64,000 bases of DNA from Escherichia coli. GTDB lineage: Bacteria > Pseudomonadota > Gammaproteobacteria > Enterobacterales > Enterobacteriaceae. The stretch lies in assembly GCF_003334305.1 (NCBI RefSeq), contig NZ_QOWS01000021.1. One strand, 5' to 3'. Below the pieces are notes generated by a model. It searched no databases. It was not told where the DNA came from and saw nothing but the letters and a program-made list of their open reading frames with translations. The position numbers were made by a program, and so were the translations under genes. Positions 7,484 through 54,117 of this stretch are shown here, piece by piece. Position 1 is the first letter of the stretch, and each line of letters opens with the position of its first letter.

Positions 7484-7528
7484 AGGGCAAAGCGGAAACG
7501 GATAAGACGGGCATAAATGAAGAAGAAA

Positions 7529-7573
7529 TGGCGCGCCCTGCAGGATTCGAACCTGCGGCCCACGACTTAGAAG
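7529..7573. repeat. attL: 45-bp partial copy of the tRNA-Arg 3' end (pauD-like remnant)
   Basis: tggcgcgccctgcaggattcgaacctgcggcccacgacttagaag is identical to 54073-54117; coordinates approximate. Confidence 0.85.
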
Positions 7574-7995
7574 TTCCTAGAACGACATTTTAAGTCAACA
7601 AATTACCGCGCCATCTCTGCGCTCACACGTCCCACTACCTCAAAACATGTAAAGCCTTGCAAGCCATTGTGAGGCCTTATGTGTCTCAGTTTTGTCCCTC
7701 TTTTTTGTACTAAAAAACATAGCAATTGAGGATAAACCTCATGCTATTTTCGCTTATATGCCTTTAAAGGCATGGCGCTTAAATAGATAAAAACACCACA
7801 AAAGCATAAAAAACCACACAGTAAAACCGCAACATAAAACAATAACAGATAATTAAACCAAAAACAGATAGCGCATTGTGATAATCATTCAATACTAAAC
7901 AAAATATAAACAGTGGAGCAATATGTGATTGACTCATTAAGTTAGATATAAAAAATACATATTCAATCATTAAAACGATTGAATGGAGAACTTTT

Positions 7996-8949: not shown

Positions 8950-9135
8950 CGAAGTTAACCAGATTTTCTCCCCGGTGGTATTGTATAACCCCGGGGAATT
9001 TGTTTACAGTTACAAGTAGGCAATATCCACTAATTTTGTAAGCATTTAACCTATGTCATAACGTGTAATCTCTTACCGCAACACAAGACCTCAATATATT
9101 CAAATCTTATCTTTATTCCGATATTCAGAGACACA

Positions 9136-10620: not shown

Positions 10621-10641
10621 TTTCAAAATATTCCGCTATTT

Positions 10642-10692
10642 GCTCCCAATGCAAAACATATATTGCATTGGGAGCATATTCATATTTTTGTT
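10642..10692 (+). terminator. Rho-independent terminator after the hydrolase gene
   Basis: 12-bp perfect inverted repeat gctcccaatgca / tgcattgggagc followed by a T-rich tail; coordinates approximate. Confidence 0.6.
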
Positions 10693-10803
10693 ATTATTGT
10701 ATGAAATCGTCTCATGTACACGGTCCTTTTTTCGCCGAAAACTGATATTACTTTAATCAAAAGTTGACGTGCCAGATTCGAAGTAAATTTATAAAATATC
10801 AAA

Positions 10804-11109
10804 TCAATATACATTTTGCACCTTCGAGATAGTAATGACTGTTACTGTAACATGAGTTACAAACAGCTTCATACCCAGAGCTACTGATGTATCAACTCGA
10901 TTCAACAATACCCGATATTTATTCCATGCCTCCAGCAACGATCTTTCTTCCTCCGTTGCGATTTCCAGATCTACAGCATCCTGCAGTGGCGCAATATACT
11001 CACTGAATTCCTGGATGTAGAACTGTGTGGTGACGGTCTTCCAGCCATTCGGCTCCTGCTGTATCGAAGCATACCAGGCTATTTCAATATCGCTATGCTG
11101 CGGCAGCAT
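10804..11109 (-). pseudogene. Tail fibre assembly protein C-terminal remnant (tfaX-like)
   Basis: Translation contains the conserved Tfa motif [37 protein letters not shown] with no N-terminal domain; about 110 nt is a direct repeat of 13690-13800. Confidence 0.7.
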
Positions 11110-11165
11110 TTAACCCCTTGTAATTCATCGCCATAATTGATTTAATTCACAAATAAAACTATAAC

Positions 11166-11834
11166 ATGGTGAAATTAATGAAAAAAAACACAGATGATGG
11201 GGCTAAAATTTACACACCACTTACCCTAAAGCTTTATGACTGGTGGGTTTTGGGAGTATCAAATCGGCTTGCATGGGGATGTCCTACAAAGGAACACCTT
11301 CTTCCACACTTTCTGGAACATTTAGGTAACAACCATCTGGATATTGGTGTTGGAACTGGGTTTTACCTTACTCACGTACCTGAGAGTAGTCTGATATCTT
11401 TAATGGATTTGAACGAAGCTAGCCTGAACGCGGCATCTACAAGGGCTGGGGAATCAAAAATTAAACATAAAATTAACCATGATGTTTTTGAACCTTATCC
11501 CGCGGCGTTACATGGTCAATTTGATTCCATTTCCATGTTTTACCTTCTTCACTGCCTGCCTGGAAATATATCTACAAAAAGCTGTGTAATACGCAATGCG
11601 GCGCAGGCCTTAACTGACGATGGAACTCTATACGGAGCCACAATTCTTGGCGATGGAGTTGTGCACAATAGCTTCGGTCAAAAACTGATGCGCATTTACA
11701 ATCAGAAAGGCATCTTTTCAAACACAAAAGATTCCGAAGAAGGCTTAACACATATACTCTCAGAGCATTTCGAGAATGTTAAAACCAAGGTTCAAGGTAC
11801 TGTAGTAATGTTTTCCGCTTCAGGGAAAAAATAG
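11166..11834 (+). CDS. ybcY: Class I SAM-dependent methyltransferase (YbcY-like), 222 aa
   Basis: Gly-rich SAM-binding motif DIGVGTGFY; same position as the ybcY pseudogene of DLP12. Confidence 0.65.
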   Translation: MVKLMKKNTDDGAKIYTPLTLKLYDWWVLGVSNRLAWGCPTKEHLLPHFLEHLGNNHLDIGVGTGFYLTHVPESSLISLMDLNEASLNAASTRAGESKIKHKINHDVFEPYPAALHGQFDSISMFYLLHCLPGNISTKSCVIRNAAQALTDDGTLYGATILGDGVVHNSFGQKLMRIYNQKGIFSNTKDSEEGLTHILSEHFENVKTKVQGTVVMFSASGKK

Positions 11835-11840
11835 CATCCA

Positions 11841-11882
11841 ACCGCAGCACGTTCTTGCATAAGGCGTGTCTGCGGTTTTTCA
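11841..11882 (+). terminator. Rho-independent terminator after ybcY
   Basis: Stem accgcagcacg…cgtgtctgcggt followed by TTTTT; coordinates approximate. Confidence 0.55.
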
Positions 11883-12348
11883 ACTATTCAGATACATCAC
11901 TCCCATCACATTCATTCCTCCGCATCATAGGCATATAGGCTATATCACCTTGATATTTTTCTTCTTCAGATAAAAACTGTTATCTATGTATACTTTTAAA
12001 CCCAATCCGTGTAGAGTCTCTGCATAAGATAGTTTGCAGTTGCCACTTCAGCTTGCGCCATAAACCGCCTGATTTTTGCCGCCACCTGTTAGCATTCCTG
12101 TATACCTGAAACGACAATGTTTATCTACGAACTTTAAGAACACCCAGGATAAAAATTGTCAACTATATCATATATAACACATTACTAATTCGAGGCTATA
12201 TGAACAGCATACTGATAATCACTTCTCTCCTTATCATATTCAGCATTTTTAGTCATGCCCTAATAAAATTAGGGATTGGCATATCCAATAACCCAGACAA
12301 AACCGATGTATAAGTCAACATATCCTGAATCAGACATACAATATCGCA

Positions 12349-12615
12349 ATGAAAATCAATAATATTTTAAGGAATATCTTCATGAAATCAAAAGACACCC
12401 TAAAGTGGTTCCCTGCGCAGCTTCCTGAAGTAAGAATTATCCTAGGGGATGCTGTAGTGGAAGTAGCAAAACAGGGAAGACCTATCAATACCAGAACATT
12501 GCTTGATTACATTGAAGGAAACATAAAGAAAAAATCATGGCTGGATAACAAAGAATTATTACAAACAGCGATATCAGTTCTTAAAGACAACCAAAATTTA
12601 AATGGTAAAATGTAA
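12349..12615 (+). CDS. Hypothetical protein, 88 aa, AT-rich cargo
   Basis: ORF only; no recognisable motif. Confidence 0.3.
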   Translation: MKINNILRNIFMKSKDTLKWFPAQLPEVRIILGDAVVEVAKQGRPINTRTLLDYIEGNIKKKSWLDNKELLQTAISVLKDNQNLNGKM

Positions 12616-12931
12616 TATAATAAACTTACTTTTTTATCATTTTTCCACTTTAACAACATTTTGCTCCACTTTTCCACGATCAAACAACTTGAAATCTGGT
12701 TAAAATAACACGCAACACTATTCTTCTTCCTTGAGTCCGCCCGGAACTCGAAAAACAAACCGAGTTAAAGCCATTTTTCACAAAATCGATTTTGGGTCTC
12801 ACCAAAATTACGGGGTTGCATACGCATTCGTTTATTTTCGAACGTGTACATACAAATATGCACAAAAATAATCAAAATTATTTTCTGAGATGCATTATGA
12901 TATGAACACCAATTTCGTATAGAGTCTCACT

Positions 12932-13522
12932 ATGTCTCGAATTTTTGCTTACTGTCGGATATCAACGCTGGATCAGACCATCGAAAATCAACGCAGGGAA
13001 ATCGAAAGTGCAGGTTTTAAAATCAAACCTCAGCAAATAATCGAAGAACACATTAGCGGCTCAGCAGCAACCAGTGAGCGTCCTGGTTTTAACCGGTTGC
13101 TTGCTCGCCTGAAATGTGGTGATCAATTGATTGTGACAAAACTGGATCGCCTTGGTTGTAATGCAATGGATATCAGGAAAACAGTGGAACAACTGACCGA
13201 AACAGGTATCAGAGTGCATTGCTTAGCATTGGGGGGCATTGACCTGACCAGTCCAACAGGAAAAATGATGATGCACGTAATTTCAGCAGTCGCTGAATTT
13301 GAACGAGACCTTTTACTTGAACGCACTCATTCCGGGATAGTAAGAGCCCGCGGCGCAGGGAAACGTTTTGGTCGACCACCTGTGTTAAATGAAGAACAGA
13401 AACAGGTGGTATTCGAACGAATTAAGTCAGGTGTAAGTATAAGTGCCATTGCCCGGGAATTCAAAACCTCGCGGCAAACCATTTTAAGAGCCAAAGCAAA
13501 ACTTCAGACACCTGACATATAA
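12932..13522 (+). CDS. pin: Serine recombinase / DNA invertase (Pin/Gin/Hin family), 196 aa
   Basis: N-terminal resolvase catalytic motif (YCRISTLDQ) and C-terminal HTH; strong similarity to e14 Pin as recalled. Confidence 0.9.
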
Positions 13523-13619
13523 AAAATAATCTCGGTGTGAGATGCTTTACGTCTTCCAAGCCCCCTTCCTTGCCGTAAATGGAAAGATACATCTAATTAT
13601 AGAATTTATATGTTTTACC

Positions 13620-14195
13620 CTACGGCAGTGCTGGCCATTCAATATCCTGTGCAGTTGACGTATCAACACGGTTCAGCAACACCCGATACTTTTTCCAGGC
13701 TTCCAGCAATGAGGTTTCTTCCTCCGTTGCGATTTCCAGATCTACAGCATCCTGAAGTGGCGCAATATGCTCACTGGCTACCTGCATCAGGCTGTTTTTT
13801 GTTTCTTCCGCCTCTCGGATCCGGAACAGTTTTTCTGCTTCTGCATCTTTCACCCAGGCTGTGCCGTTCCACTTCTGAAACTCCCCTTCCGGCGATAACC
13901 AGGTAACATTTTCCGGTAACGGACCGAGTTCAGAAATAAATAACGCGTCCCCTGACGCTACGTCATAAACCGTTTTACCCCGATGGTCTTCAACGAGATG
14001 CCACGATGCCTTATCACTGTTGAAAACAGCCACAAAGCCAGCAGGAATATCTGGTGGTGCAATATCGGTACTGTTTGCTGGCAGACCTGTATGAGGCGGA
14101 ATATATGCGTCACCTTCACCAATAAATTCATTAGTTCCGGCCAGCAGATTATAAATTTTTATGGTCCGTGGTTGTTCACTCATTCTGAATGCCAT
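13620..14195 (-). CDS. tfa: Tail fibre assembly protein Tfa, 191 aa
   Basis: Conserved Tfa C-terminal motif; immediately downstream of the side tail fibre gene. Confidence 0.85.
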
Positions 14196-17029
14196 TATGC
14201 AAGCCTCACAATATAGTTAAATGCGATGTTTTTGACGGTGTTTTCCGCGTTACCAGCAGCGTTAACGGTGATGGTGTGTCCATGTGAACCAATCGCAACG
14301 GAGTGCGTATGAGCACCAATACCGACAGTATGCGCGTGTGCACCTGCAGATGCTGCTGTGCCGGACAGTGAATGGCTATGATTACCATCTGTACTGGTAT
14401 TCGCTAACCACCCCGTAGACATACCTACTGAGCCTTGTACACCCCAGGTATTTTGACCTGAGCTTGTATAACCATATTGATAAGTATCTTTAAAAACACT
14501 GGGGTTAAATCGACGGCCATCTCTATGGCTGTGATTACCAGCTGCATTCGTGCTGCCACTTAAACTATGGGTATGCGCACCAGTGTTATTCGTGGATTTA
14601 GTGCCGTAATCAAACGACGATGTGGTTTTCGTCCCCAAATCCGTACTGGATGCGCTGGCGCTGTGGGTATGCGATTTAATGCCGTCCTGTTCCTGAGACA
14701 ATACGGCCCGACCACTGGCAGGTTTGCCCTTAATCGTCCAGCCACGCATATCAGGGATCACGCCTGACGGATAAGCGGCTGCAAGTTTCGGGTATGCAGA
14801 TTTGTCAAAAGTCTGCCCCTGCATCAGGGCATAGCCAGACGGAACGGTATCTGATGGCCACGGGATTGGTGCGCCAGGCGGATAAAACTGCTCTGATGGC
14901 GTATAGAGTGAATAAACTGTACCGTCCGTTAACCCTTCCGGCTTATTAGCAGAATATGCTGGTGACGTATGAATCGTCACGCTGGCATTACTGGTATAAT
15001 CCCATTGAATATTTACACCAGTCGCATAATTTCCGATTGCAACGTAAATATCGTAAGTATCACCAGATGTATTGACCCAGGCAAAATTTGTAAACCCTGT
15101 CGATGTGCGCTGCCATAAAGCACCAGTAATCCCCTTCGGATTACCATTACCTGCACGTAAAACAAGTTCAGATATACCTGCCTGTTGAGGTGACCCCACG
15201 TTAAATCCAGCGCCACCAATCAACGTAATTGAAACAACAGAACTCGCCTGTGGCATGGTTACCGTTGCTAATTTGAACCAACCAGCACCACCGCTGAATG
15301 ACATTGTTGTTGAGTTAAGCGTACCAATATCTTTCGGCGTCAGTGTTATATCCGCTGAAAGCGCCTTACCATTCACCTTACGGGCAGAAGGTACCCGACC
15401 ATTCGCATTGTCATTAGCTGCTTTCACTGCTTTCGGTGTCGCAGCAAGCGTTTCAGATGTGCTGTTGGTTGCACTACTGAGCTGGACAATTCCTTTTTGT
15501 GCTGTCGTAGCGTCCTGTGCGGTGTATTTCCCGTTAGCCAGGTCATACGCGGCCTTAACGGCTTTTGGCGTTGCCGCCTGTGACTCGGAAGTGCTGTTGG
15601 TCGCACTGCTGAGCTGTACTATCCCCTTTTTCGTCGTGCTCGCATCCTCAAGCGCCACGGCGGATGCAATATCCTCTGCCCGTTTTGCTGCTGTCTCGGC
15701 GCGCGTTGCCGCGGATTCCGCCGTACTTTTGCTCTGTGCTGCCGCTGCCGCACTGCCAGCAGCCTCTGTCGCCTTCGTGGATGCCGTCGTGGCGCTGCCC
15801 CTCGCTGCTGACGCCTGTCTGGTCGCCTCATCTTTTGAAGCAGACGCAGATGATGCCGATGACGCCGCCGAACTGGCGGACGATGCGGCAGCCGTTTTTG
15901 AGGATTCTGCGCTGGTTTCCGACGCTTTCGCGTTCGTTTCGGATGTCTTCGCTGCGGAAGCAGACCTCGCTGCTGCGCTGGCCTGTTCAGTGGCTTCGCC
16001 AGCCTTCGTTGTGGCTGTTGAAGCGGATGATGCGGCGCTTTCTGCCGATTTTCCGGCGGCGGTGGCACTGACTGCTGCCTCCTCTGCCTTAATGGACGCC
16101 TCACGGGCCGATGATGCAGCTGCTGTCTCAGAGTCTGCCGCAGCTGAGGCGCTCTGTTCCGCTGCCGTTTCAGAAGACCTGGCATTCGTCTCGGACGTTT
16201 TTGCCGCCTTCACGGAATTTCCTGCCGCCGTTGCCGAGGAGGCTGCACTGCTGGCGCTTGTGGAGGCGTTCGTTTCTGATGATTTTGCCGCCTCTTTGGA
16301 GGCCGCCGCATCTCTGGCTGAAGTGGCGGCTTCTGACGCTTTCGTCGTCGCAGTGGATGCAGAAGTGGCTGCTGATTTTTGTGACGCTGCAGCATTCGTT
16401 TCTGACGTTTTCGCCGCACCGGCACTGGTGGCCGCCGCGCTTTTTGAGGACTCTGCAGCGGCAGCACTTTTTGATGCTTCAGTGGCCTTTGTTGATGCCG
16501 TTCCTGCGCTGGAAGACGCCTCCTGAGCCGAAGTCGCGGCCTGTCCGGCTGACGTGCTGGCTGCACGCGCTGAGCCTGCAGCATCAGTCGCATGGGTTGC
16601 CGCCTCACGGGCAGATGTGCCGGCATCACTGGCTGACTTCTTCGCGGCTGCCGTGTTCTGTGCCACCGCGGACGCGTTACGCGTCACCTCTTCCACCATC
16701 AGTTCAAAACGGCGCAGAGCCTCCGGACGGGCATCATCCTCCGTCATGGCACCGAGAAAATCATTCAGCGTACCGGGTCGGGAATCTTCATACACGGTGA
16801 TGGTCCCGGCATGTGACGGCGGGAATCCTTCCACCAACAGAATAACGCTGTACTGACCGTACTCAACGTCCATGCTGTAACGCCCGGCTTCATCCGGATT
16901 TTCTGAGGCCAGCGTGTTCACCACCACCGTGGTGCTGTTACGTTTTGCTTTCAGCTGGATTGTGCAGTTCTGTACCGGTTTTCCTGTGCCGTCTTTCAGT
17001 ACACCTGAAATCTTTACTGCCATATTCAC
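14195..17029 (-). CDS. stf: Side tail fibre protein (Stf-like), 944 aa, with long Ala/Ser/Thr-rich repeats
   Basis: Repeated KTSETNA-type units, His-rich C-terminal tip (HTHS…HSHS…HAHT…HGHT); lies between lom and tfa. Confidence 0.85.
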
Positions 17030-17087
17030 CCCACAAAAAAGCCCGCCTGAACCGGCGGGCTGTCATAACACTGTGTTACCTGGCTAA

Positions 17088-17687
17088 TCAGAACTTATAA
17101 CCGACACCCACGATGAAACCGTCAGTGCGCCAGTCGCCACTGCCGGAGCCTTCATAAGCAATATCAATGGCCACGGATTCGGTCGGGTTAAACTGCACGC
17201 CAGCTCCCCACGCCAGAGACGTGTTGCTGTGGCGACCGTCATCACTTCCGGTCAGCACGTCGTGCGTTTTCCCCTTGTTGTCAGTTACGCGGAGATAATC
17301 CCCGGAGAAAGTCGACACACGGCTGTAAGCCACACCCGCCATCGCATACGCGCTGAACCATTCATTCACGCGCACAGACGGCCCCGCCATTACGCTGAAC
17401 CAGCGGTTACGAACGGAATCTTCATGCCAGCGAGTATCGCTGTAATGGGTCAGTTGGCGATTCTTGTCTCCTGCATAGCTGAATGACGTCACCAGCCCCA
17501 GCGTATCCGTAAACTCATAACGGTATTTCACGTTAATCCCGTTCAGATCATCACTGCCGGGAACGTTGGTCCGGGCATGAAGATACCCCGCGCTCAGCGT
17601 GGACTGATGTTCAGACGCCCATGCAGGCGCACCGGATACGGCCAGACAAATGGCTGCGGACAAAATGGCGGCACAAACTTTACGCAT
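17088..17687 (-). CDS. lom: Lom outer membrane protein (Ail/Lom family), 199 aa
   Basis: Signal peptide plus beta-barrel-like sequence ending …VGVGYKF; directly downstream of J as in lambda. Confidence 0.85.
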   Translation of the reverse strand: MRKVCAAILSAAICLAVSGAPAWASEHQSTLSAGYLHARTNVPGSDDLNGINVKYRYEFTDTLGLVTSFSYAGDKNRQLTHYSDTRWHEDSVRNRWFSVMAGPSVRVNEWFSAYAMAGVAYSRVSTFSGDYLRVTDNKGKTHDVLTGSDDGRHSNTSLAWGAGVQFNPTESVAIDIAYEGSGSGDWRTDGFIVGVGYKF

Positions 17688-17757
17688 AATTACCTCTCGC
17701 TTTTCTGCAATAAAAAAGGCGTCATTCCTGACGCCATTTATTGGGGTTATAAATATT

Positions 17758-20700
17758 TCAACGAATACTGATGCCGGAAGCCGCTTTTTTGGTCACAATC
17801 ACCGTACAGTCGGTGATATTGCCTGCCCCCTGATTGCCTTTCTGGAAAATCTTAAACTCCAGAGTGACGCTACCACCACCACTAGGCATATCAATAACTG
17901 CACTGTAACTACCGGGAATGGCCCCTTTAGTTTCTCTGGATGCGATTAATACGCCGTTTTTGCGAACTTCAAAACCATAACCCGTGTATCGCGTGCCTCC
18001 TGGGTTATTTCCGCTCCCCGGATCGTCATACGCTATACCGTTAAAAATAATGGGCGGAATAATAATCTGGCGGTCAAAGTTATGATCATCGCTGATGGTG
18101 ACTGTAACCGTACCGTTTGGTGTTTCCGTGTTACCCCACGTACCGACTTTTTTCGGGAAGGCTTTTGATACAGCTTTAACGAAATCCCCTCTGACCTGGG
18201 TCGCCTCCAGCATGCCCTTAATCGTACAGTTTTCATTTACCGTGACATTGTTGAGCGTTCCTGAGTTCGCATTCACACTACCACTGATATCCGCATTTTT
18301 AGCGGTCAGCTTTCCGTCTGATGTCAGGGAAAATACCGGAGGACTGCCACCGCTGGTAATGGTGGGGGCTGTCAGGCGCTTCAGGAACACGTCGTTCATG
18401 AATATCTGGTTGCCCTGCGCCACAAACATCGGCGTTTCATTCCCGTTTGCCGGGTCAATAAACGCGATACGATTGGCGGCAACCAGAAACTGGCTCAGCT
18501 TGCCTTCCTCCGTGTCCTCCATGCTGAGGCCAATACCCGCGACATAATGTTTGCCGTCTTTGGTCTGCTCAATTTTGACGCCCCACATAGCATTCCATTT
18601 ATCGTTAGCGTCCTTCCACTCTTTCGAAAACTCATCCAGTCTGCTGGCGTTATCCTCCGTCAGGTCGACTTTTTCCAGCAGCTCTTTACCGAGATGGGAT
18701 TCGGTTATCTTGCCTTTGAAAAAATCCAGGTAACCTTCCGCATCATCGCTCGCCCGACCGACGGCCTCCACGAATGCCGATTTGCCAACGGTGTTCACAC
18801 TGCGGATATAAAAGTAATAATCATGGCCCGGTTTGATATTGATACTGGCGGCTATCCAGTACAGCCCCGTGCCAAGGTAGCGGGCTGTGGTTTCAACCTG
18901 CCTGATATCGGTAATCCGCGTTTCCGAGAACCAGAACTCAAACTGTACCGTCGGATCATAAACCGCAAGATGCGGCGTGGCGGTTATCTGAAAATAGCCC
19001 GGCGTCAGCTCAATCCGCGACGGCGCTGCCGGGGCGGCAATCCGGAACGATACCGACGCCGGATCGCCCTGCTGTCCCCGGGCATTTACCGCCCGGACCG
19101 TCAGCGTGTAACGCCCCAGCGCCAGTTGCCTGAAGCGGTAAGTGGTTTCCGTCGTCCGGGCCGTGCTGACCAGCCGCTCACTGCCGTCATCGGCGGCCAC
19201 GGTCAGGCGAAGCATAAAGCTCACGCCCTTCACCACCTTCGGCGTATCCCAGCGCGCCAGCACCTGGTATTCCCCGCTGTCTGCGGTGACTTCGGCGGTC
19301 AGGTGCTGCACCGCTGGCGGCGTGACACCATTCACCGTGCCGCTCTGGTCGCCGTCAAAGTGCGCCCCGTTATCCACGATGGCTTCTTTTTCCGGTACAT
19401 GCTGCACGGCGGTGATGGCATACGTGCCGTCGTCGTTCTCACGGATACTCACGCAGCGGAACAGGCGCTGGCGCAGCGTCGGCAGCTTCAGCCCCCACAC
19501 GCTGTATTCAGCAACGCCGTCAGGAACACGGCTCACTTTCACCTTCACGCCGTCGGTGACGGACTGAACCTCCACGCTGACCGGATTGCCACTTCCGTCA
19601 ACCAGGCTTATCAGCGTGGTACCGGAGGATGGCAGCGTGATTTCACGGTCGAGCGTCAGCGTCCGGGTCTGGCTGTTTACCGCCAGCACGCGACCACCGG
19701 TGCTGATACCGGCATAGTCATCATCGCAGATTTCAATGACATCGCCCGGTACATGGCGAAGCCCTTCAGCACCCACGCTGAAGTCCACGGTCTGCGTTTC
19801 CAGCAGTTCCGTTTTAATCAGCCACAGCCCGGCGCGGTGCGCCTGCCCCCGGCTGGTACAGCCAAAGGCATCCATCTTCGTGACGTTACGACCGTAACGG
19901 GCAATGGCCTGCGCATCTTCAACAAGCTCTGTCGCCGTCTCCCAGCCGTTATCCGGGTCAATCCAGTTCACCTCAACGGCATTATGGCGGTCCTTCAGGG
20001 CGCTGAAACTGTAGCGGAACGGCGCGCCATCATCCGGCATCACCACATTACTGCGGTTATAGGTCCACACCTTATCTGATGGTCGGTCCTGCACGAACGT
20101 CAGCGTCTGCCCGTTCCATACCGGCATACAGCGCATCGCCGAGCAGAAATCACTGAGCACATCCCACGCCTTACGCTGCGTGGTCAGGTAGGCATTACAG
20201 GTGATGCGCGGCTCCGTGCCGCCAAAACCGTCCGGCACTGACTGGTCGCAGTACTGGCCGATGACATACAGCGCCCATTTATCCACATCCGCCGCACCAA
20301 GACGTTTCCCCATGCCGTAGCGCGGATGGGTCAGCATATCCCACAGACACCAGGCCATGTTGTTGCTGTATGCCGGTTTAAACGTTCCGTCCCAGATACC
20401 GCTGTATTGCCGCGTCTGCGGGTTATAGTTCGACGGCACCTGCAGAATGCGCCCGCGCAGATGATAATTACGGCTCACCTGCTGGCTGCCGAACTGCTCC
20501 GAATCCACCTGCACGCCGACCAGTGCCGTGTTCGGGTAGCCCTGTTTCACATCGATGATTTCGGTGTATGACGACCAGAGCGTTTTGTTCTGCAGCTGGT
20601 CTGTGGTGCTGTCCGGCGTCATCCTGCGCATCCGGATATTAAACGGGCGCGGCGGCAGGCTACCCACCACCACCGAGGCCAGATACTGCGAGGTGGTTTT

Positions 20701-21171
20701 GCCCTTAATGGTGATGTCTTTTTCCGTCACCCAGCCACCGTTACGTTGTATCTGAACCAGCAGACGGACTTCCGACGGATTCCTGTCACCCTTTGAGGTG
20801 GTTTCCACCAGTGCCTGTACACCGAAGGTAAAGCGCAGACGGTCGATGTTTGCAGACGTAATGGTGCGGGTGATCGGCGTGTCATATTTCACTTCCGTAC
20901 CCAGCACCGTCTCGGAGCCGGAGGATTCAAACCCCTCCGGCGGTGTCTGCTCCTGCTCACCGGCACGGAACACCACCGTGACACCGGAGATGTTGGTATT
21001 CCCCTCAGTGTCCAGCACCGGCGTACTGTTCAGCAGCACGCTTTTTAATCCATCCACCGGACCTTCAACCGGCCCTTCGCTGATGGCATCGATCACACTC
21101 AGCAACTGCGTGGACTTCAGGTTGTCCTTCGCTTCGCGCGGGGTATGCCCCTTACTGCTTCCTTTACCCAT
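17758..21171 (-). CDS. J: Tail tip / host specificity protein J, 1137 aa
   Basis: Near-identical to lambda J over about the first 980 residues as recalled; the C-terminal ~150 aa diverge. Confidence 0.95.
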
Positions 21172-21231
21172 TCCTCACGCTCCATAAATGACAAAACCGC
21201 CCGCAGGCGGTTTCACATAAAACATTTTGCA

Positions 21232-21903
21232 TCAGCGACCAATCACCACAACCTGACCACCGTCCCCTTCGTCTGCCGTGCTGATCTCCTGAGAAACCAC
21301 GCGTGACCCCACGCGCATTTCCCCGTACAGAACAGGCAGAACATTGCCCTGGGCAACCATGTTATCCAGTGAGGAGAAATAGGTGTTCTGCTTACCGTTA
21401 TCCGTTGTCTGTGTACGGGGAGTTCTGGCTTTCGGTGCCAGCATCTGCGCCACACCACCGAGCACCATACTGGCACCGAGAGAAAACAGGATGCCGGTCA
21501 TACCACCGGCCCCAATGGCTGCCCCCCATGCTGCAAGGGTGGCTCCGGCGGTAAAGAATGATCCGGCAATGGCGGCAGCCCCCAGGACAATCTGGAATAC
21601 GCCACCTGACTTGGCCCCGGCGACTCTGGGAACAATATGAATCACAGCGCCATCAGGCAGAGTCTCATGTAACTGCGCCGTTAACCCGGACGTGCTGACG
21701 TCCCGCCCGGCAATCCGTACCTGATACCAGCCGTCGCTCAGTTTCTGACGAAACGCCGGGAGCTGTGTGGCCAGTGCCCGGATGGCTTCAGCCCCCGTTT
21801 TCACACGAAGGTCGATGCGGCGACCAAGTCGTTGTAAATCCCCGTAAAGGCAGATGCGCGCCATGCCCGGTGACGCCAGAGGGAGTGTGTGCGTCGCTGC
21901 CAT
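21232..21903 (-). CDS. I: Tail tip assembly protein I, 223 aa
   Basis: Matches lambda I as recalled (MAATHTLPLASPGMARICLYGDLQ…). Confidence 0.9.
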   Translation of the reverse strand: MAATHTLPLASPGMARICLYGDLQRLGRRIDLRVKTGAEAIRALATQLPAFRQKLSDGWYQVRIAGRDVSTSGLTAQLHETLPDGAVIHIVPRVAGAKSGGVFQIVLGAAAIAGSFFTAGATLAAWGAAIGAGGMTGILFSLGASMVLGGVAQMLAPKARTPRTQTTDNGKQNTYFSSLDNMVAQGNVLPVLYGEMRVGSRVVSQEISTADEGDGGQVVVIGR

Positions 21904-22544
21904 TTGTCGGTGTACCTCTCTCGTTTGCTCAGTTGTTCAGGAATATGGTGCAGCAGCTCGCCGTCGCCGCAGTAAATTGCGGCGTGATTCGGCACCGATG
22001 AACCAAAACAGCACAGCAGCACATCGCCCGGCTGTGCCGCTGACAACGGCACCTGATACAGCCCCGTCGCCTCCAGATTATCCAGATAGAGATTCTGGCC
22101 GTTACGCCACCAGTCATCCTCACGATGAAAGTCCGGCATCTCAATCCCCGCCAGATGATAAGCATCCCGGAACAGTGTGTAACAGTCCGTCACACCGTGC
22201 TCAAAGCGCCGCCCGGTGAGATGCGGCACACAGCGGAACTTATGAATCGTCCCCCGGCAGACCAGCCACCACGGCAAATCACTCTGCACCTGCAGCCGCC
22301 GGTCGGCCTCACTCAGCCAGGGCAGACCACCGGGGTGGCTGTGGACCAGCGCCACAATCTCACCCTGCATTTCTGCCTGCAGCCAGTCTTCCGGCGACAT
22401 ACGGAAATACGCCTCCGGCTCACCGGAGATATTCACGCAGGGGAAATATCTTTCCCCCTCCGGCGTGCTTACCACGAAGCCGCACGACTCCGCTGGCGCA
22501 CATCGCCGGGCGTGCGCCAGAATCGCTGATTCTGTCTGTGTCAT
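21801..22544 (-). CDS. K: Tail tip assembly protein K (JAB/MPN + NlpC/P60-like)
   Basis: Matches lambda K; the classical lambda annotation uses an internal start (about 22400, 199 aa); overlaps I by about 100 nt. Confidence 0.85.
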   Translation of the reverse strand: MTQTESAILAHARRCAPAESCGFVVSTPEGERYFPCVNISGEPEAYFRMSPEDWLQAEMQGEIVALVHSHPGGLPWLSEADRRLQVQSDLPWWLVCRGTIHKFRCVPHLTGRRFEHGVTDCYTLFRDAYHLAGIEMPDFHREDDWWRNGQNLYLDNLEATGLYQVPLSAAQPGDVLLCCFGSSVPNHAAIYCGDGELLHHIPEQLSKRERYTDKWQRRTHSLWRHRAWRASAFTGIYNDLVAASTFV

Positions 22545-22549
22545 GGGAT

Positions 22550-23248
22550 TTACTGCGAAAGTTTGTTAATGGAAAGGAAGCCGCCAAAGTTGCCGACGTT
22601 ATTGCGGAACTTACAACCGCTCAGGCATTTGCTGCATTTATCCTTCGTGATATCGGACGTTGGCTGGTCATATTCATCCGCGACAGCCGGACCGCTATAA
22701 CCGCACTCGTCACCGCGATAGGTCCAGGTGCAGGTGTTGGCCAGCATGATACGTCCCGGAAAAACAGCGCCATCCGTTTCCGTCGGCGTGGACAGTACAA
22801 AGGAGGCACTCACCGCGCTCAGTTCGCTGCACTGCTCAATGCGCCAGCGGCTGATCACCTCCTGCTCCGGATCGGCATAACTGTTTCCGTTGACGAAGTT
22901 CACCGCATCCAGAAAACGGGCGTAAACCTTACGCCGGACCACCGTTCCGCCGACCAGACTCTGCATATCTTCCGCCATCCCGGTGACCATACCGTACAGG
23001 TTAGAAACCGTCAGCGTGGGGCGCGTACTGGTGCCTTTGCCATTCAGTTCAAAACCGCTCCCCTGAATGGGATACGGCTGATACTGTCGCCCCTGCCAGG
23101 TGACCGGCTCACCTTTTTCGTTCTGCTCATTACAGAAAAAATAACGTTCTCCACCGACCTCTGTCAGGTCGATTTCCCAGAGCACCACGCTGGCCGACTG
23201 CTCCGCACGGGTGCATTCATTCAGTGTTTCCTGCCGGATATCCTGCAT
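22550..23248 (-). CDS. L: Minor tail protein L, 232 aa
   Basis: Matches lambda L as recalled. Confidence 0.9.
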   Translation of the reverse strand: MQDIRQETLNECTRAEQSASVVLWEIDLTEVGGERYFFCNEQNEKGEPVTWQGRQYQPYPIQGSGFELNGKGTSTRPTLTVSNLYGMVTGMAEDMQSLVGGTVVRRKVYARFLDAVNFVNGNSYADPEQEVISRWRIEQCSELSAVSASFVLSTPTETDGAVFPGRIMLANTCTWTYRGDECGYSGPAVADEYDQPTSDITKDKCSKCLSGCKFRNNVGNFGGFLSINKLSQ

Positions 23249-23577
23249 CAGTTCACCACCTGTTCAAACTCTGCGCTGAACTCAACACGCAGCATACTGA
23301 CCCGCGACGACCATTTTGCGCAGGTCACCTTTATCTGCCGCCACTCATAAGGCGGCGTCCACAGAAAGGATTTCCAGCCCCCGTGCTCTTCCAGAAACGA
23401 CTCCAGTACCGTGGCCTCCTCACGGGGGACAGAAAGCGTCACGCTGTACGTTTTCAGGTTGGCATTCAGCCCGGCAGGCGCTCGCTGAGAATAGCCATCA
23501 CCAAAGCGCACCTTTCTTACAGAAGGGACCGAAGCCACATCCATACCGGGTTTCACTTTCCAGCGGAAGGTCTTCAT
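23248..23577 (-). CDS. M: Minor tail protein M, 109 aa
   Basis: Matches lambda M; lambda gene order. Confidence 0.9.
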   Translation of the reverse strand: MKTFRWKVKPGMDVASVPSVRKVRFGDGYSQRAPAGLNANLKTYSVTLSVPREEATVLESFLEEHGGWKSFLWTPPYEWRQIKVTCAKWSSRVSMLRVEFSAEFEQVVN

Positions 23578-26135
23578 CGTCCACCTCCGGAGAACAGGCC
23601 ACCATCACGCATCTGTGTCTGAATTTCATCACGGGCACCCTTGCGGGCCATGTCATACACCGCCTTCAGAGCAGCCGGACCTATCTGCCCGTTCGTGCCG
23701 TCGTTGTTAATCACCACATGGTTATTCTGCTCAAACGTCCCGGACGCCTGCGACCGGCTGTCTGCCATGCTGCCCGGTGTACCGACATAACCGCCGGTGG
23801 CATAGCCGCGCATCAGCCGGTAAAGATTCCCCACGCCAATCCGGCTGGTTGCCTCCTTCGTGAAGACAAACTCACCACGGTGAACAATCCCCGCTGGCTC
23901 ATATTTGCCGCCGGTTCCCGTAAATCCTCCGGTTGCAAAATGGAATTTCGCCGCAGCGGCCTGAATGGCTGTACCGCCTGACGCGGATGCGCCGCCACCA
24001 ACAGCCCCGCCAATGGCGCTGCCGATACTCCCGACAATCCCCACCATTGCCTGCTTAAGCAGAATTTCTGTCATCATGGACAGCACGGAACGGGTGAAGC
24101 TGCGCCAGTTCTGCTCACTGCCGGTCAGCATCGCTGCCATATTCTGTGCAATACCATCAAAGGTCTGCGTGGCTGCACTTTTTACCTGCGACATACTGTC
24201 CGTGGCGCTCTCTTCCCACTCACTCCAGCCGGACTTCAGGCCTGCCATCCAGCTCCCGCGAAGCTGGTCTTCAGCCGCCCAGGTCTTTTTCTGCTCTGAC
24301 ATGACGTTATTCAGCGCCAGCGGATTATCGCCATACTGTTCCTTCAGGCGCTGTTCCGTGGCTTCCCGTTCTGCCTGCCGGTCAGTCAGCCCCCGGCTTT
24401 TCGCATCAATGGCGGCCCGTTTTGCCCGTTGCTGCTGTGCGAATTTATCCGCCTGCTGCGCCAGCGCGTTCAGGCGCTCCTGATACGTAACCTTGTCGCC
24501 AAGTGCAGCCAGCTGGCGTTTGTACTCCAGCGTCTCATCTTTATGCGCCAGCAGGGATTTCTCCTGTGCGGATAGCTGGCGACGTTGTGCCGCCTCCTCC
24601 AGTACCGCGAACTGACTTTCTGCCTTCCACAAATCCCGGCGCTGCTGGCTGATTTTCTCATTTGCTCCGGCATGCTTCTCCAGCGTCCGGAGTTCTGCCT
24701 GAAGCGTCAGCAGGGCAGCATGAGCACTGTCTTCCTGACGATCGCCCGCAGACACCTTCACGCCGGACTGTTTCGGCTTTTTCAGCGTCGCTTCATAATC
24801 CTTTTTCGCCGCCGCCATCAGCGTGTTGTAATCCGCCTGCAGGATTTTCCCGTCTTTCAGTGCCTTGTTCAGTTCTTCCTGACGGGCGGTATATTTCTCC
24901 AGCGGCGTCTGCAGCCGTTCGTAAGCCTTCTGCGCCTCTTCGGTATATTTCAGCCGTGACGCTTCGGTATCGCTCTGCTGCTGCGCATTTTTGTCCTGTT
25001 GAGTCTGCTGCTCAGCCTTCTTTCGGGCGGCTTCAAGCGCAAGACGGGCCTTTTCACGATCATCCCAGTAACGCGCCCGCGCTTCATCGTTAACAAAATA
25101 ATCATCCTTGCGCAGATTCCAGATGTCGTCTGCTTTCTTAAACGCAGCCTCTGCCTTAATCAGCATCTCCTGCGCGGTATCAGGACGACCAATATCCAGC
25201 ACCGCATCCCACATGGATTTGAAGGCCCGCGCAGTCCTGTCTGCCCAGGTCTCCAGCGTGCCCATGTTCTCTTTCAGGCGGCGGGTCTGGTCATCAAACC
25301 CTTTCGTTGCGGCCTCGTTCGCCGCCTGCAATGCCCCGGCTTCATCGCCGGAACGCTGCAACTGAGCAACATACGCAATCTGCTCCGCCGTCACGTTATG
25401 GAACTGGCGTGCCATCGCCGTCAGCCCCGACGTCGGGTCTGTGGTCAGCTTCCCGAAGGCTTCAGCGACCTTGTCCACCTCCACGCCGGATGCAGAGGAG
25501 AAACGCGCCACACTCTGGCTGATGGACGCAATCTGAGCCTCACCGCTTACCCCCGCCTTAACCAGTGCGCTGAGTGACTCGCTGGTCTGGTTAAACGTCA
25601 GCCCTGCCGCCTGCCCGGCTCTGGACAGGACCAGCATACGATCTGCCGTCAGCCCCGACTGATTGCCGGAAAGGACCAGCGTTTTGTTGAAATCGGACAA
25701 GGTTGAGTTGCCCTGATACCAGGCATACGCCAGCGCACCGGTCGCCACCGCCAGCGAGGTGGCCCCCACCATCGGCAGGGTGATCGCACCGGCAAGCCCC
25801 CTGAACATGGGGATCATCCCGCCGAAGGAGTCCTTAACCTGACCACCCTGTTGCAGCAGGATCAGCCACGGACTTTGCCCGCCTGCAAGCTGCGTGGCCA
25901 CGTCGGTGAACTGTGCAGGCAGCATACGCATGGCGGCTTTATACTGCCCGACGGAAATCCCCGCTTTCTGTGCAGCCAGCGCCTGTCGGCTCAGCGACTG
26001 TTCAACGACTGCCGCTGTTTTTTTCGCATCACTTTCCGTACCGGAAAAATGACGCCTGACTCTGGCCATCTGCTCGTCAAATCTGGCCGCATCCAGACTC
26101 AAATCAACGACCAGATCGCCTACCGGTTCAGCCAT
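23574..26135 (-). CDS. H: Tail tape measure protein H, 853 aa
   Basis: Same length and sequence as lambda H as recalled. Confidence 0.95.
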   Translation of the reverse strand: MAEPVGDLVVDLSLDAARFDEQMARVRRHFSGTESDAKKTAAVVEQSLSRQALAAQKAGISVGQYKAAMRMLPAQFTDVATQLAGGQSPWLILLQQGGQVKDSFGGMIPMFRGLAGAITLPMVGATSLAVATGALAYAWYQGNSTLSDFNKTLVLSGNQSGLTADRMLVLSRAGQAAGLTFNQTSESLSALVKAGVSGEAQIASISQSVARFSSASGVEVDKVAEAFGKLTTDPTSGLTAMARQFHNVTAEQIAYVAQLQRSGDEAGALQAANEAATKGFDDQTRRLKENMGTLETWADRTARAFKSMWDAVLDIGRPDTAQEMLIKAEAAFKKADDIWNLRKDDYFVNDEARARYWDDREKARLALEAARKKAEQQTQQDKNAQQQSDTEASRLKYTEEAQKAYERLQTPLEKYTARQEELNKALKDGKILQADYNTLMAAAKKDYEATLKKPKQSGVKVSAGDRQEDSAHAALLTLQAELRTLEKHAGANEKISQQRRDLWKAESQFAVLEEAAQRRQLSAQEKSLLAHKDETLEYKRQLAALGDKVTYQERLNALAQQADKFAQQQRAKRAAIDAKSRGLTDRQAEREATEQRLKEQYGDNPLALNNVMSEQKKTWAAEDQLRGSWMAGLKSGWSEWEESATDSMSQVKSAATQTFDGIAQNMAAMLTGSEQNWRSFTRSVLSMMTEILLKQAMVGIVGSIGSAIGGAVGGGASASGGTAIQAAAAKFHFATGGFTGTGGKYEPAGIVHRGEFVFTKEATSRIGVGNLYRLMRGYATGGYVGTPGSMADSRSQASGTFEQNNHVVINNDGTNGQIGPAALKAVYDMARKGARDEIQTQMRDGGLFSGGGR

Positions 26136-39496: not shown

Positions 39497-40579
39497 ATGA
39501 AAAAATTAACAGTGGCAATTTCTGCTGTAGCTGCATCAGTACTGATGGCGATGTCTGCTCAGGCAGCTGAAATTTATAATAAAGACAGTAACAAGCTGGA
39601 TCTGTACGGGAAAGTTAATGCTAAGCACTACTTCTCCTCTAATGATGCAGATGATGGTGATACTACTTATGCCCGTCTTGGCTTCAAAGGTGAAACCCAA
39701 ATCAACGATCAACTGACTGGTTTCGGTCAGTGGGAATATGAATTCAAAGGCAACCGCGCTGAATCTCAAGGTTCCTCCAAAGATAAAACCCGTCTTGCCT
39801 TCGCTGGCCTGAAATTCGGTGACTACGGCTCCATCGATTATGGCCGTAACTACGGTGTAGCATACGATATTGGTGCATGGACCGACGTTCTGCCAGAATT
39901 CGGTGGCGATACCTGGACCCAAACAGATGTATTCATGACTGGTCGCACCACAGGTGTTGCAACTTATCGTAACAACGACTTCTTTGGTCTGGTTGATGGC
40001 CTGAACTTTGCAGCTCAGTATCAGGGCAAAAATGACCGAAATGAAGTAACTGAAGCTAATGGCGATGGTTTCGGTTTCTCAACTACTTATGAGTATGAAG
40101 GATTCGGCGTGGGTGCAACCTATGCTAAATCTGATCGCACTAATAATCAGGTTATCTACGGTAACAACGGTCTGAATGCTTCTGGTCAAAATGCTGAAGT
40201 ATGGGCAGCTGGTCTGAAATATGATGCGAACAACATCTATCTGGCCACCACCTATTCTGAAACCCAGAACATGACTGTTTTTGGTAATAACCATATTGCC
40301 AACAAAGCACAAAACTTCGAAGCTGTTGCACAATATCAGTTCGACTTCGGCCTGCGTCCATCCGTTGCTTACCTGCATTCTAAAGGAAAAGACTTGGGTG
40401 TTTGGGGTGATCAGGACCTGGTTGAATATGTTGATGTAGGTGCAACCTATTACTTCAACAAAAATATGTCCACTTTTGTTGACTACAAAATCAACCTGAT
40501 TGATAAGAGCGATTTCACGAAAGCATCTGGCGTTGCTACCGATGATATCGTTGCTGTAGGTATGGTTTACCAGTTCTAA
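39497..40579 (+). CDS. nmpC: Prophage-encoded general porin (NmpC/Lc, OmpC/OmpF family), 360 aa, apparently intact
   Basis: Signal peptide, porin beta-barrel sequence ending …VGMVYQF; located between Q and the lysis genes as in DLP12. Confidence 0.9.
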
Positions 40580-46058: not shown

Positions 46059-46082
46059 TGCCTTATCAGTTAACGCCGCAGT

Positions 46083-48891: not shown

Positions 48892-48896
48892 AACGT

Positions 48897-52695: not shown

Positions 52696-53038
52696 GGCCT
52701 GTCAGTTTCTTAAGATATCCAGACCAACCGCCACCAACTGGATACGAACAGGCCGCCTACAGGCAACACGTAAAGATCCAACCAAGCCAAAATCTCCTTA
52801 CCTCACAACACGGCAAGCCTGCATTGCGGCGCTTCAGTCTCCGCTGCATACTGTCCAGGTGAGCGCGGGTGATGGCATAACAGAGGAAAGAAAATGTCAC
52901 TCTTCCGCAGAAATGAAATATGGTATGCCTCGTATTCGCTCCCGGGCGGGAAACGAATTAAGGAATCTCTTGGCACAAAGGACAAGCGGCAAGCTCAGGA
53001 GTTGCACGACAAGCGAAAAGCAGAACTCTGGCGAGTAG
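52667..53038 (+). CDS. xis: Putative excisionase (Xis-like HTH protein); overlaps the int start
   Basis: ORF 52637-53038; internal Met [31 protein letters not shown] has an HTH; lies immediately upstream of int. Confidence 0.45.
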
Positions 53039-54057
53039 AAAAGCTAGGGGATTTACCTGATGTCACTTTTGAAGAGGCCTGCCTAAGATGGCTTGAGGAA
53101 AAAGCTGATAAAAAATCTCTCGATTCAGATAAAAGCCGGATTGAGTTCTGGCTTGAACATTTTGAGGGTATAAGGCTTAAAGATATCTCGGAGGCAAAGA
53201 TTTACTCTGCTGTAAGCAGAATGCATAACAGAAAGACGAAAGAAATATGGAAACAGAAAGTTCAGGCCGCCATCAGGAAAGGTAAAGAACTGCCTGTTTA
53301 TGAACCAAAGCCAGTATCAACTCAGACAAAGGCAAAGCATCTTGCCATGATAAAGGCCATTCTCCGTGCTGCAGAACGCGACTGGAAGTGGCTGGAAAAA
53401 GCGCCTGTCATCAAGATACCAGCGGTCAGAAACAAGCGAGTCAGATGGCTGGAAAAGGAGGAAGCAAAACGCCTTATTGATGAGTGCCCCGAACCACTGA
53501 AATCTGTCGTCAAGTTTGCGCTGGCAACTGGTCTGAGAAAGTCGAACATCATAAATCTGGAATGGCAACAAATCGACATGCAGCGACGAGTTGCCTGGGT
53601 GAATCCAGAAGAGAGCAAATCAAACCGCGCCATTGGTGTGGCGCTGAACGATACCGCCTGTAAAGTGTTGCGTGATCAAATAGGCAAGCATCACAAATGG
53701 GTGTTTGTACATACCAAGGCGGCTAAGCGAGCAGATGGAACATCAACGCCTGCGGTCAGGAAGATGCGCATCGACAGCAAGACATCATGGCTATCAGCTT
53801 GTCGTCGTGCAGGAATTGAAGATTTCCGTTTCCATGACCTCAGACACACCTGGGCAAGCTGGCTGATTCAGTCAGGCGTCCCATTATCAGTGCTTCAGGA
53901 AATGGGCGGATGGGAGTCCATAGAAATGGTTCGTAGGTATGCTCACCTTGCGCCTAATCATTTGACAGAGCATGCGAGGAAAATAGACGACATTTTTGGT
54001 GATAATGTCCCAAATATGTCCCACTCTGGAATTATGGAGGATATAAAGAAGGCGTAA
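52894..54057 (+). CDS. intD: Tyrosine integrase (IntD-like), 387 aa
   Basis: Matches DLP12 integrase as recalled; C-terminal catalytic region (…[15 protein letters not shown]…RYAHL); adjacent to tRNA-Arg. Confidence 0.9.
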
Positions 54058-54072
54058 CTGATTGAATTGTAA

Positions 54073-54117
54073 TGGCGCGCCCTGCAGGATTCGAACCTGC
54101 GGCCCACGACTTAGAAG
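54073..54117. repeat. attR core (3' 45 nt of argU), identical to 7529-7573
   Basis: Direct repeat seen in sequence. Confidence 0.85.

What the first reader, a model, noticed from the sequence alone, without database searches (positions are those of the whole stretch)
17758..18210. J tail-tip protein with a non-lambda C-terminal receptor-binding domain
J is almost identical to lambda J up to roughly residue 980 and then diverges completely over the last ~150 aa (ending …GISIR rather than the lambda LamB-binding terminus). The C-terminal domain determines receptor choice, so this phage probably uses a receptor other than LamB. The same prophage encodes its own porin.
Basis: partly seen in the sequence, partly recalled or inferred. 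Interest (0 to 1): 0.5.

Follow-up and report, generated by a model that had tools for sequence, protein, structure and literature searches.

The report
Phage-434-type (OmpC-binding) J tail tip
The tail-tip protein J of this intact E. coli prophage carries the well-known phage-434 ("h434") receptor-binding end, which targets the porin OmpC rather than LamB; about 39% of complete E. coli genomes have this end, so the finding is correct but ordinary.

Summary
J (window 17758-21171, minus strand, 1137 aa) is 97% identical to lambda J over residues 1-960. Identity falls across codons ~970-990 and is 35% over the last 150 aa, which end in GISIR. That tail is still homologous to lambda's (E 1e-26), so it has not diverged completely.

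The C-terminus is a known allele. It is 97% identical to phage 434 J (98% over the whole protein, same length, same end) and 100% identical to the plaque-forming phage mEp460_ev081.

This end occurs in 2113 of 5426 complete E. coli genomes, against 98 for the lambda/LamB type. Phage PhiR30_1 is 99-100% identical on both sides of the segment but carries another OmpC-binding cassette (the "A8" type, PDB 9wcb). This shows the segment is an exchangeable module.

The prophage (7527-54117, integrated in argU) looks intact. It does encode a porin (39497-40579), 90% identical to Lc of phage PA-2. Pairing an OmpC-targeting J with an Lc porin repeats the old PA-2 arrangement. Verdict: already known, low interest.

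The parts
17758..21171 (-). Gene J: tail tip attachment / central tail fibre protein, 1137 aa
   Evidence: Intact ORF. It is 88% identical to lambda J overall and 98% to phage 434 J, with the same length. It matches PHROG 31 'central tail fiber J'. RefSeq annotates the identical DNA in strain A7 as gpJ.
17758..18210 (-). h434-type receptor-binding domain cassette (J residues 988-1137 plus stop). This is the finding itself.
   Evidence: Identity is 35% to lambda, 97.3% to phage 434, and 100% to phage mEp460_ev081. The AF2 model (pLDDT 75) matches solved gpJ receptor-binding domains 8xcj/8xck/9wca/9wcb. In phage PhiR30_1 this same segment is replaced while its flanks stay 95-100% identical.
18211..18261 (-). 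Transition zone of the mosaic (J codons 971-987), where identity to lambda decays
   Evidence: DNA identity to lambda is 77-80% here, at least 87% upstream and mostly 33-60% downstream. Protein identity over residues 961-987 is 81.5%.
17710..17735 (-). Intrinsic terminator-like hairpin plus T-run just after the J stop codon
   Evidence: GGCGTCAGGAATGACGCC followed by TTTTTTATTG on the minus strand. Phage 434 has an annotated terminator at the same place.
17088..17687 (-). lom: Ail/Lom/OmpX-family outer-membrane beta-barrel (not a porin)
   Evidence: PHROG 108 'Lom', E 1e-110. NCBIfam OmpX/Rck-like hits fall below their cut-offs. It is 98.5% identical to ev243 Lom.
14195..17029 (-). stf: side tail fibre, a second host-range determinant
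   Evidence: PHROG tail fibre families, best E 6e-237. Only the N-terminal 183 aa resemble ev243 Stf, at 77%. RefSeq annotates the equivalent gene in strain A7 as 'prophage tail fiber N-terminal domain-containing protein'.
13620..14195 (-). tfa: tail fibre assembly chaperone
   Evidence: PHROG 105 'tail fiber assembly', E 5e-100.
39497..40579 (+). Prophage porin of the Lc/NmpC type, between Q and the holin gene and transcribed opposite to them
   Evidence: NCBIfam porin OmpC subfamily, 515 bits against a cut-off of 484. It is 90% identical to Lc of phage PA-2, with differences clustered at residues ~181-235. The 800 bp upstream are 97% identical to the PA-2 lc upstream region, where the PA-2 record annotates CRP sites. 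It is 61% identical to K-12 OmpC, with loop deletions, and 100% identical to the porin of phage ev243.
7527..7573 (.). att core repeat at the prophage end on the ompT side
   Evidence: A 47-bp exact direct repeat of 54071-54117. Alignment with phage ev243 breaks here.
54071..54117 (.). att core repeat at the integrase end, inside tRNA-Arg(UCU) (argU, 54073-54149, minus strand)
   Evidence: The integrase ORF at 52894..54057 is 99.7% identical to the ev243 integrase.

Best explanation
Window 17758-18210 encodes the phage-434-type ('h434') receptor-binding domain (RBD) of tail-tip protein J. It sits on a lambda-like J scaffold inside an intact lambdoid prophage integrated at argU. As in lambda, three J chains form the tail-tip hub and extend a central fibre that ends in a trimer of Ig-like RBDs. 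That trimer docks onto a trimeric outer-membrane porin, and the binding is passed up the fibre to open the tail for DNA ejection. With this cassette the porin recognised is OmpC rather than LamB. The cassette is an exchangeable module: recombination in the conserved fibre-shaft sequence just upstream and in the terminator/lom sequence just downstream swaps RBDs between otherwise near-identical phages. What is shown here: the sequence identities, the mosaic boundaries, the fold, the intactness of the prophage, and how common the allele is. What is inferred: OmpC as receptor (from 97% identity to 434 and published 434/h434 genetics) and the lambda-like opening mechanism (from 97% identity of the rest of J to lambda).
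For: J is 98% identical to phage 434 J over all 1137 residues, with only 4 differences in the last 150 aa. The last 453 nt are 98.2-98.5% identical to phage 434 and to the lambda h434 imm21 hybrid. Literature states that the 434 J gene confers OmpC use on lambda and that 434 uses OmpC (PMC3509688 and PMC11101478). The RBD is 100% identical in protein to plaque-forming phage mEp460_ev081, and its DNA is 99.3-99.8% identical to that phage, to ASU11, to phage 2851 and to several Stx2 phages, so this exact allele is carried by sequenced phages. The window residues at the variable positions (I1108, Q1110, G1115) are the majority state among the nine h434-type alleles aligned; 434 itself is the minority variant. 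The fold is the same as solved gpJ RBDs. The scaffold is 97% identical to lambda J. All 29 ev243 genes checked, including every head, tail, lysis and integration gene among them, are full length apart from the side tail fibre, which differs after residue 183; the element is flanked by a 47-bp att repeat in argU. Cassette exchange is shown by PhiR30_1: it is 99-100% identical from gene M to J codon ~857 and 95-100% identical from lom onward, but only 36-59% identical across 17811-18200.
Against: No adsorption or plating data exist for this allele in anything I could read; OmpC is inferred by homology. Three of the four RBD differences from 434 cluster at residues 1108-1115, which are polymorphic among natural alleles (I/V, Q/H, G/R/W). 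Small changes in J can change receptor use: a single mutation lets phage 21 use OmpC (PMC11336670). Natural gpJ C-termini can also be OmpC-allele specific: chimera 1A2 works on EDL933 OmpC but not MG1655 OmpC (PMC11338833). The host's own ompC lies outside the window. No structure of a 434-type RBD with OmpC has been solved.
Confidence: 0.85

Rival explanations
1. The cassette is 434-like, but its natural substitutions (N1019, I1108, Q1110, G1115) shift specificity. It would then use only certain OmpC alleles, or another general porin such as OmpF or an Lc/NmpC-type porin, rather than OmpC in general.
For: The variable positions cluster in a short stretch that aligns with the indel-rich, least conserved part of the lambda RBD. 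One to four J mutations change receptor use in phages 21 and lambda (PMC11336670). gpJ chimeras show OmpC-allele specificity (PMC11338833).
Against: The window carries the consensus residues of the h434 family, and the family is otherwise 95-100% conserved over 150 aa. Phage 434, with the minority residues, is the one with a known OmpC phenotype, and nothing suggests the majority allele behaves differently.
Confidence: 0.1
2. The gene is a relic: the prophage at this site is defective, as DLP12 is in K-12, and J is never used.
For: The argU site holds the defective DLP12 in K-12. In strain A7, which has identical J DNA, RefSeq marks the Rz/Rz1 lysis genes as frameshifted or partial.
Against: In the window, all 29 ev243 proteins tested match a window gene; all but the side tail fibre, including Rz, align as single full-length HSPs. 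J is an uninterrupted 1137-codon ORF. Both att copies are present. The element is colinear with plaque-forming phage ev243.
Confidence: 0.05
3. Despite the divergence, the domain still binds LamB, as lambda does.
For: The fold is the same as the lambda RBD, and 35% identity is retained.
Against: It is near-identical to the allele that genetically replaces LamB use by OmpC use. The divergent, indel-bearing stretches lie within the C-terminal receptor-binding domain.
Confidence: 0.01

Closest known systems
Phage 434 J protein / the 'h434' host-range allele (OL657226; lambda h434 imm21, OM418627)
   Same: Same length (1137 aa) and same ...GISIR terminus. It is 98% identical overall and 97.3% in the last 150 aa. 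The gene order is the same: J, terminator, lom, stf.
   Different: There are 26 substitutions, 4 of them in the last 150 aa (N1019D, I1108V, Q1110H, G1115R, written window to 434). Phage 434 does not carry the porin; only the laboratory variant 434B does, on a segment it acquired from DLP12.
Lambda gpJ (LamB-binding; PDB 8xcj, 8xck, 8iyk)
   Same: The hub, FNIII, helical shaft and beta-prism fibre (residues 1-960) are 97% identical. The C-terminal Ig-like RBD has the same fold.
   Different: The RBD is only 35% identical, with four indels, and the receptor is predicted to be OmpC rather than LamB. In complete E. coli genomes the lambda-type end is about 20 times rarer: 98 genomes against 2113.
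'A8'-type gpJ RBD (PDB 9wca/9wcb with OmpC; phages phi330 and PhiR30_1; Eligo gpJ chimera A8)
   Same: It is another natural J C-terminal cassette that targets OmpC, on the same scaffold. PhiR30_1 shares 99-100% identical flanks with the window (PMC12502783, PMC11338833).
   Different: It is about 50% identical to the window over the last ~180 aa, so it is a separate cassette family.
Lambdoid phage PA-2 (OmpC-dependent phage carrying the lc porin gene)
   Same: The window porin is 90% identical to Lc, its 800-bp upstream region is 97% identical, and it occupies the same position next to the lysis genes. The prophage pairs it with an OmpC-type J.
   Different: The PA-2 J sequence is not in the collections I searched, so its RBD type could not be compared. 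That PA-2 uses OmpC and that its lysogens replace OmpC with Lc is from my own knowledge of the 1970s-80s Schnaitman-laboratory papers; these are not in the searchable library.

Membership tests
Lambda-type tip attachment protein J (central tail fibre) | Full-length homology to lambda gpJ hub, FNIII, shaft and fibre domains | tested here: met
   97.0% identity over residues 1-960; PHROG 31 hit over residues 1-993.
Lambda-type tip attachment protein J (central tail fibre) | Position in the tail operon (H-M-L-K-I-J, followed by lom and stf) | tested here: met
   RefSeq annotation of identical DNA in strain A7; tblastn of ev243 proteins against the window.
h434 (phage 434) host-range allele of J | C-terminal receptor-binding domain sequence of phage 434 / lambda h434 | tested here: met
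   146 of 150 residues identical, no gaps, same terminus; 98.2-98.5% DNA identity.
h434 (phage 434) host-range allele of J | Adsorption and infection depend on OmpC and not on LamB | not testable with these tools
   This needs plating or adsorption on ompC and lamB mutants. The literature supports it for 434 and h434 only.
Lambda LamB-binding RBD | Close sequence identity to lambda J residues ~985-1132 | tested here: not met
   35% identity with four indels.
A8 / phi330-type OmpC-binding RBD (PDB 9wcb) | Close sequence identity to that cassette | tested here: not met
   About 50% identity over the last ~180 aa.
gpJ Ig-like RBD fold | Structural match to solved gpJ RBDs | tested here: met
   The AF2 model (pLDDT 75, pTM 0.69) matches 8xcj, 8xck, 9wcb and 9wca at E 2e-13 to 1e-12, probability 1.00, TMq 0.64-0.66. 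The next hit is at E 7.5e-4. The model is only of moderate confidence, and the high rmsd reflects the extended fibre part.
Lc/NmpC prophage porins | OmpC-family 16-strand porin sequence close to Lc, placed between Q and the lysis genes of a lambdoid phage | tested here: met
   90% identity to PA-2 Lc; above the NCBIfam OmpC subfamily cut-off; location shown.

The most novel reading that the evidence does not exclude
Lc/NmpC-type prophage porins may be systematically coupled to OmpC-targeting J cassettes, forming a two-part 'use the receptor, then replace it' module. The phage would enter through OmpC. As a prophage it would express a loop-divergent substitute porin that displaces OmpC from the outer membrane. 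The lysogen would then keep porin function while excluding OmpC-dependent phages, including its own kin. In the phage collection, 28 porin-carrying lambdoid phages were listed. Of these, 14 have the h434-type RBD, 5 the A8-type (both OmpC binders), 5 an A8-related subtype of unknown receptor, and 4 were not resolved. None of the 24 resolved has the lambda type. The idea was proposed decades ago for PA-2; what would be new is showing it as a general, selected linkage.
Probability: 0.3. Interest if true: 0.4.

Novelty: already known. Interest (0 to 1): 0.12.

Why it matters
For this window it matters little, because the segment is the classical h434 host-range allele. It does give a concrete receptor prediction (OmpC) for a very widespread family of E. 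coli prophages, including many Stx-converting phages. The counts also show that lambda's LamB-binding end is the rare form in nature: about 2% of complete genomes, against about 39% for the h434 type and about 31% for the A8 type. That is a useful correction for anyone treating lambda as the reference. Natural J C-terminal cassettes of this kind are already used to retarget lambda-based DNA delivery particles to OmpC in the gut (PMC11338833).

Tried and rejected
Searches and checks that led nowhere:

- **PA-2, Lc and OmpC papers.** Three literature searches found nothing, and a DOI look-up failed. Statements about PA-2 biology therefore rest on my own knowledge and are marked as such.
- **Receptor data for the ev, PhiR and mEp phages that share this RBD.** The papers I could open do not report J types or receptors for them.
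- **Whether Eligo's OmpC-binding chimera '1A2' is the h434 type.** Its sequence is not in the held supplementary files.
- **An invertible tail-fibre segment next to the pinR-like invertase.** No inverted repeats of at least 20 bp were found in 10500-17200, so I dropped the idea.
- **Strict porin-J linkage.** h434-type J occurs without a porin (434, many Stx phages, mEp460) and the porin occurs with other J types. Only a weak enrichment remains: 18 overlapping records against about 10.5 expected from 74 x 36 / 253. The records are not independent samples.
- **'The C-terminus is unrelated to lambda'.** Rejected, because it is a 35%-identical homologue with the same fold.
- **Large protein-database searches.** Not run, because the phage and E. 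coli genome collections already answered the question.

Full report
**What is there**

The finding's coordinates, 17758-18210, are the last 150 codons plus the stop codon of a 3414-nt ORF on the minus strand (17758..21171). The ORF encodes a 1137-aa protein beginning [21 protein letters not shown], the lambda J tail-tip protein.

Against lambda J (NC_001416), protein identity is 97.0% over residues 1-960, 81.5% over 961-987, and 35.3% over 988-1137. At DNA level, identity to lambda is at least 87% in every 30-nt step from codon 901 to codon ~970. It is 77-80% for codons 971-990 and mostly 33-60% thereafter. The protein ends ...[10 protein letters not shown].

The tail has not diverged completely. 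It still aligns with lambda at 35% identity, E 1e-26. An AlphaFold model of the last 180 aa (pLDDT 75) matches only solved gpJ receptor-binding domains at E about 1e-13, with TMq 0.64-0.66. It is a divergent version of the same Ig-like domain.

**What it is**

A DNA search of the phage collection with the 3' end gave 74 records at 91-99.8% identity. They include phage 434, 434B and the hybrid lambda h434 imm21.

The whole protein is 98% identical to phage 434 J (OL657226). Both are 1137 aa long, align without gaps and share the same terminus. Only 4 substitutions fall in the last 150 aa: N1019D, I1108V, Q1110H and G1115R, written window to 434.

The last 150 aa are 100% identical to those of phage mEp460_ev081. 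The DNA of this segment is 99.3-99.8% identical to mEp460_ev081, ASU11, phage 2851 and several Stx2 phages. Among nine h434-type alleles aligned, the domain is 95-100% conserved. Positions 1108, 1110 and 1115 are polymorphic (I/V, Q/H, G/R/W), and the window carries the majority residues.

So this is the classical 'h434' host-range allele. The sequenced lambda h434 imm21 hybrid, whose host-range allele traces back to E. Signer, carries the same end (PMC9119081).

**Receptor**

Two papers state that substituting the 434 gene for lambda J makes the phage bind OmpC, the receptor phage 434 uses. They also state that the J C-terminus determines host specificity (PMC3509688; PMC11101478). OmpC is thus the inferred receptor for this prophage.

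I could not test this. Three caveats apply:
- Small numbers of J mutations can change receptor use (PMC11336670).
- Natural gpJ C-termini can be specific for particular OmpC alleles (PMC11338833).
- No 434-type RBD structure has been solved. The PDB holds only lambda-type and 'A8'-type gpJ.

**Mechanism**

The remaining ~960 residues are 97% identical to lambda gpJ. The lambda mechanism described from cryo-EM is therefore the reasonable model. A trimeric RBD inserts its bottom loops into the extracellular side of a trimeric porin. The RBD bases spread, the beta-prism fibre twists, the helical shaft and FNIII strings rearrange, and the hub opens (PMC11101478). This is inference from homology and was not shown for this protein.

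**Modularity**

Phage PhiR30_1 (PV340558) is 99-100% identical to the window from gene M through J to about window position 18600 (J codon ~857). It is 85-97% identical over the next ~400 nt and 36-59% identical across 17811-18200. It is again 95-100% identical from the terminator and lom onward. The swapped block thus coincides with the finding's coordinates.

PhiR30_1's cassette matches the sequence in PDB 9wca/9wcb, 'A8 gpJ 713 ... with OmpC G17 from E. coli EDL933'. It is 98.7% identical in DNA to phage phi330, which genetics and complementation showed to need OmpC (PMC12502783). The A8 chimera was built from a natural prophage gpJ C-terminus and delivers DNA through OmpC (PMC11338833).

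At least three cassettes therefore circulate on one J scaffold: lambda type (LamB), 434 type (OmpC) and A8 type (OmpC).

**How common**

| Cassette or gene | Complete E. coli genomes (of 5426) |
|---|---|
| h434-type 3' end | 2113 (39%) |
| Lambda-type 3' end | 98 (1.8%); the listed examples include K-12 laboratory strains |
| A8-type, at least 90% identity | about 1671 |
| A8-type, any match | 2712 |

In the phage collection, 253 records have a lambda-like J 5' region and 74 of those carry the h434 end. A 'non-lambda' J terminus is therefore the norm, and lambda is the exception.

**Context**

The window is E. coli chromosome. The J region is 100% identical to strain A7 and many other strains.

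The prophage runs from 7527 to 54117. It is bounded by a 47-bp direct repeat whose right copy lies in tRNA-Arg(UCU), argU. This is the DLP12 site, next to ompT, envY and nfrA.

It is colinear with the plaque-forming phage ev243, apart from the immunity region and the distal side tail fibre. All 29 ev243 proteins tested, covering head, tail, lysis, integrase, Q and the porin, match a window gene. All but the side tail fibre align as single full-length matches. The element therefore looks functional, unlike K-12's DLP12.

Downstream of J lie a terminator-like hairpin (17710-17735), then lom, stf and tfa.

**The porin**

ORF 39497..40579 is a genuine OmpC-family porin. It is 61% identical to K-12 OmpC, with deletions and substitutions in stretches that look like surface loops. 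It is 90% identical to Lc of phage PA-2, with the differences concentrated at residues ~181-235. Its 800-bp upstream region is 97% identical to the PA-2 lc upstream region, where the PA-2 record annotates CRP sites. Porins of this type at 80% identity or more occur in about 2500 complete genomes.

From my own knowledge of the Schnaitman-laboratory papers of the 1970s-80s, PA-2 uses OmpC, and PA-2 lysogens make Lc ('protein 2') while OmpC falls, which reduces adsorption. These papers are not in the searchable library. The window therefore repeats a known arrangement.

In the phage collection I listed 28 porin-carrying lambdoid phages. Of these, 14 have the h434 cassette and 5 the A8 cassette. 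Another 5 have an A8-related subtype (77% DNA identity, receptor unknown), and 4 were not resolved. None of the 24 resolved has the lambda type.

The linkage is not strict. Phage 434, mEp460 and many Stx phages have the h434 cassette without a porin. The enrichment is weak, and the records are not independent samples.

**Verdict**

It can be sharpened to 'phage-434-type, OmpC-targeting J'. The feature is already known and very common, so interest is low.

The only mildly open question is whether Lc-type porins are functionally tied to OmpC-targeting J cassettes as a general receptor-replacement strategy. These tools could not test that properly.

Noticed in passing
window 452-2689 (+), stop codon at 1655-1657: nfrB, the inner-membrane component needed for phage N4 adsorption, is split by a single in-frame TGA into ORFs of 401 and 342 aa. 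RefSeq marks the same gene in strain A7 as 'internal stop'. This strain is probably N4-resistant.
   Followed up: partly
window 7527-12000: ompT (7996-8949), an alpha/beta hydrolase (9136-10620) and a SAM-dependent methyltransferase (11166-11834) lie inside the prophage boundaries. Plaque-forming phage ev243 carries them in the same order, so the OmpT protease is phage cargo here.
   Followed up: partly
window 12932-13522 (+): A pinR-like serine invertase sits next to the tail fibre assembly gene, but no inverted repeats of at least 20 bp were found in 10500-17200. It is either a decayed tail-fibre inversion switch or one with short, divergent crossover sites.
   Followed up: partly
L017 (phage PhiR30_1, PV340558) against window 16400-23700: The two are 99-100% identical on both sides of the J receptor-binding cassette but only 36-59% identical within it. 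This is a clean natural example of cassette replacement, with a graded 85-97% zone of about 400 nt upstream (window 18200-18600).
   Followed up: yes
window 14195-17029 (-): The side tail fibre shares only its first 183 aa (77%) with ev243 Stf, and strain A7 carries a 132-nt length difference in this gene. This is a second, independent host-range mosaic directly beside J. Its receptor was not examined.
   Followed up: no
window 39497-40579 against L013 (PA-2 lc): Differences between the prophage porin and Lc are concentrated in two short stretches (residues ~181-190 and ~215-232), while the rest is nearly identical. The pattern looks like diversification of surface loops.
   Followed up: partly
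window 42000-49600: The early/immunity region is largely unrelated to that of ev243; only about 0.8 kb matches. It includes a 379-aa ORF (47243-48382) with a weak hit to an spr1629-type repressor/antitoxin family. It was not analysed further.
   Followed up: no
L014, L015 (phages Lambda_4C10, ev017) and others: A further J cassette subtype, about 77% identical in DNA to the A8 type, is carried by many infant-gut lambda-like phages (4C10, 4A7, 1W, 3W, 2E9, ev087 and others). I found no receptor assignment for it.
   Followed up: no
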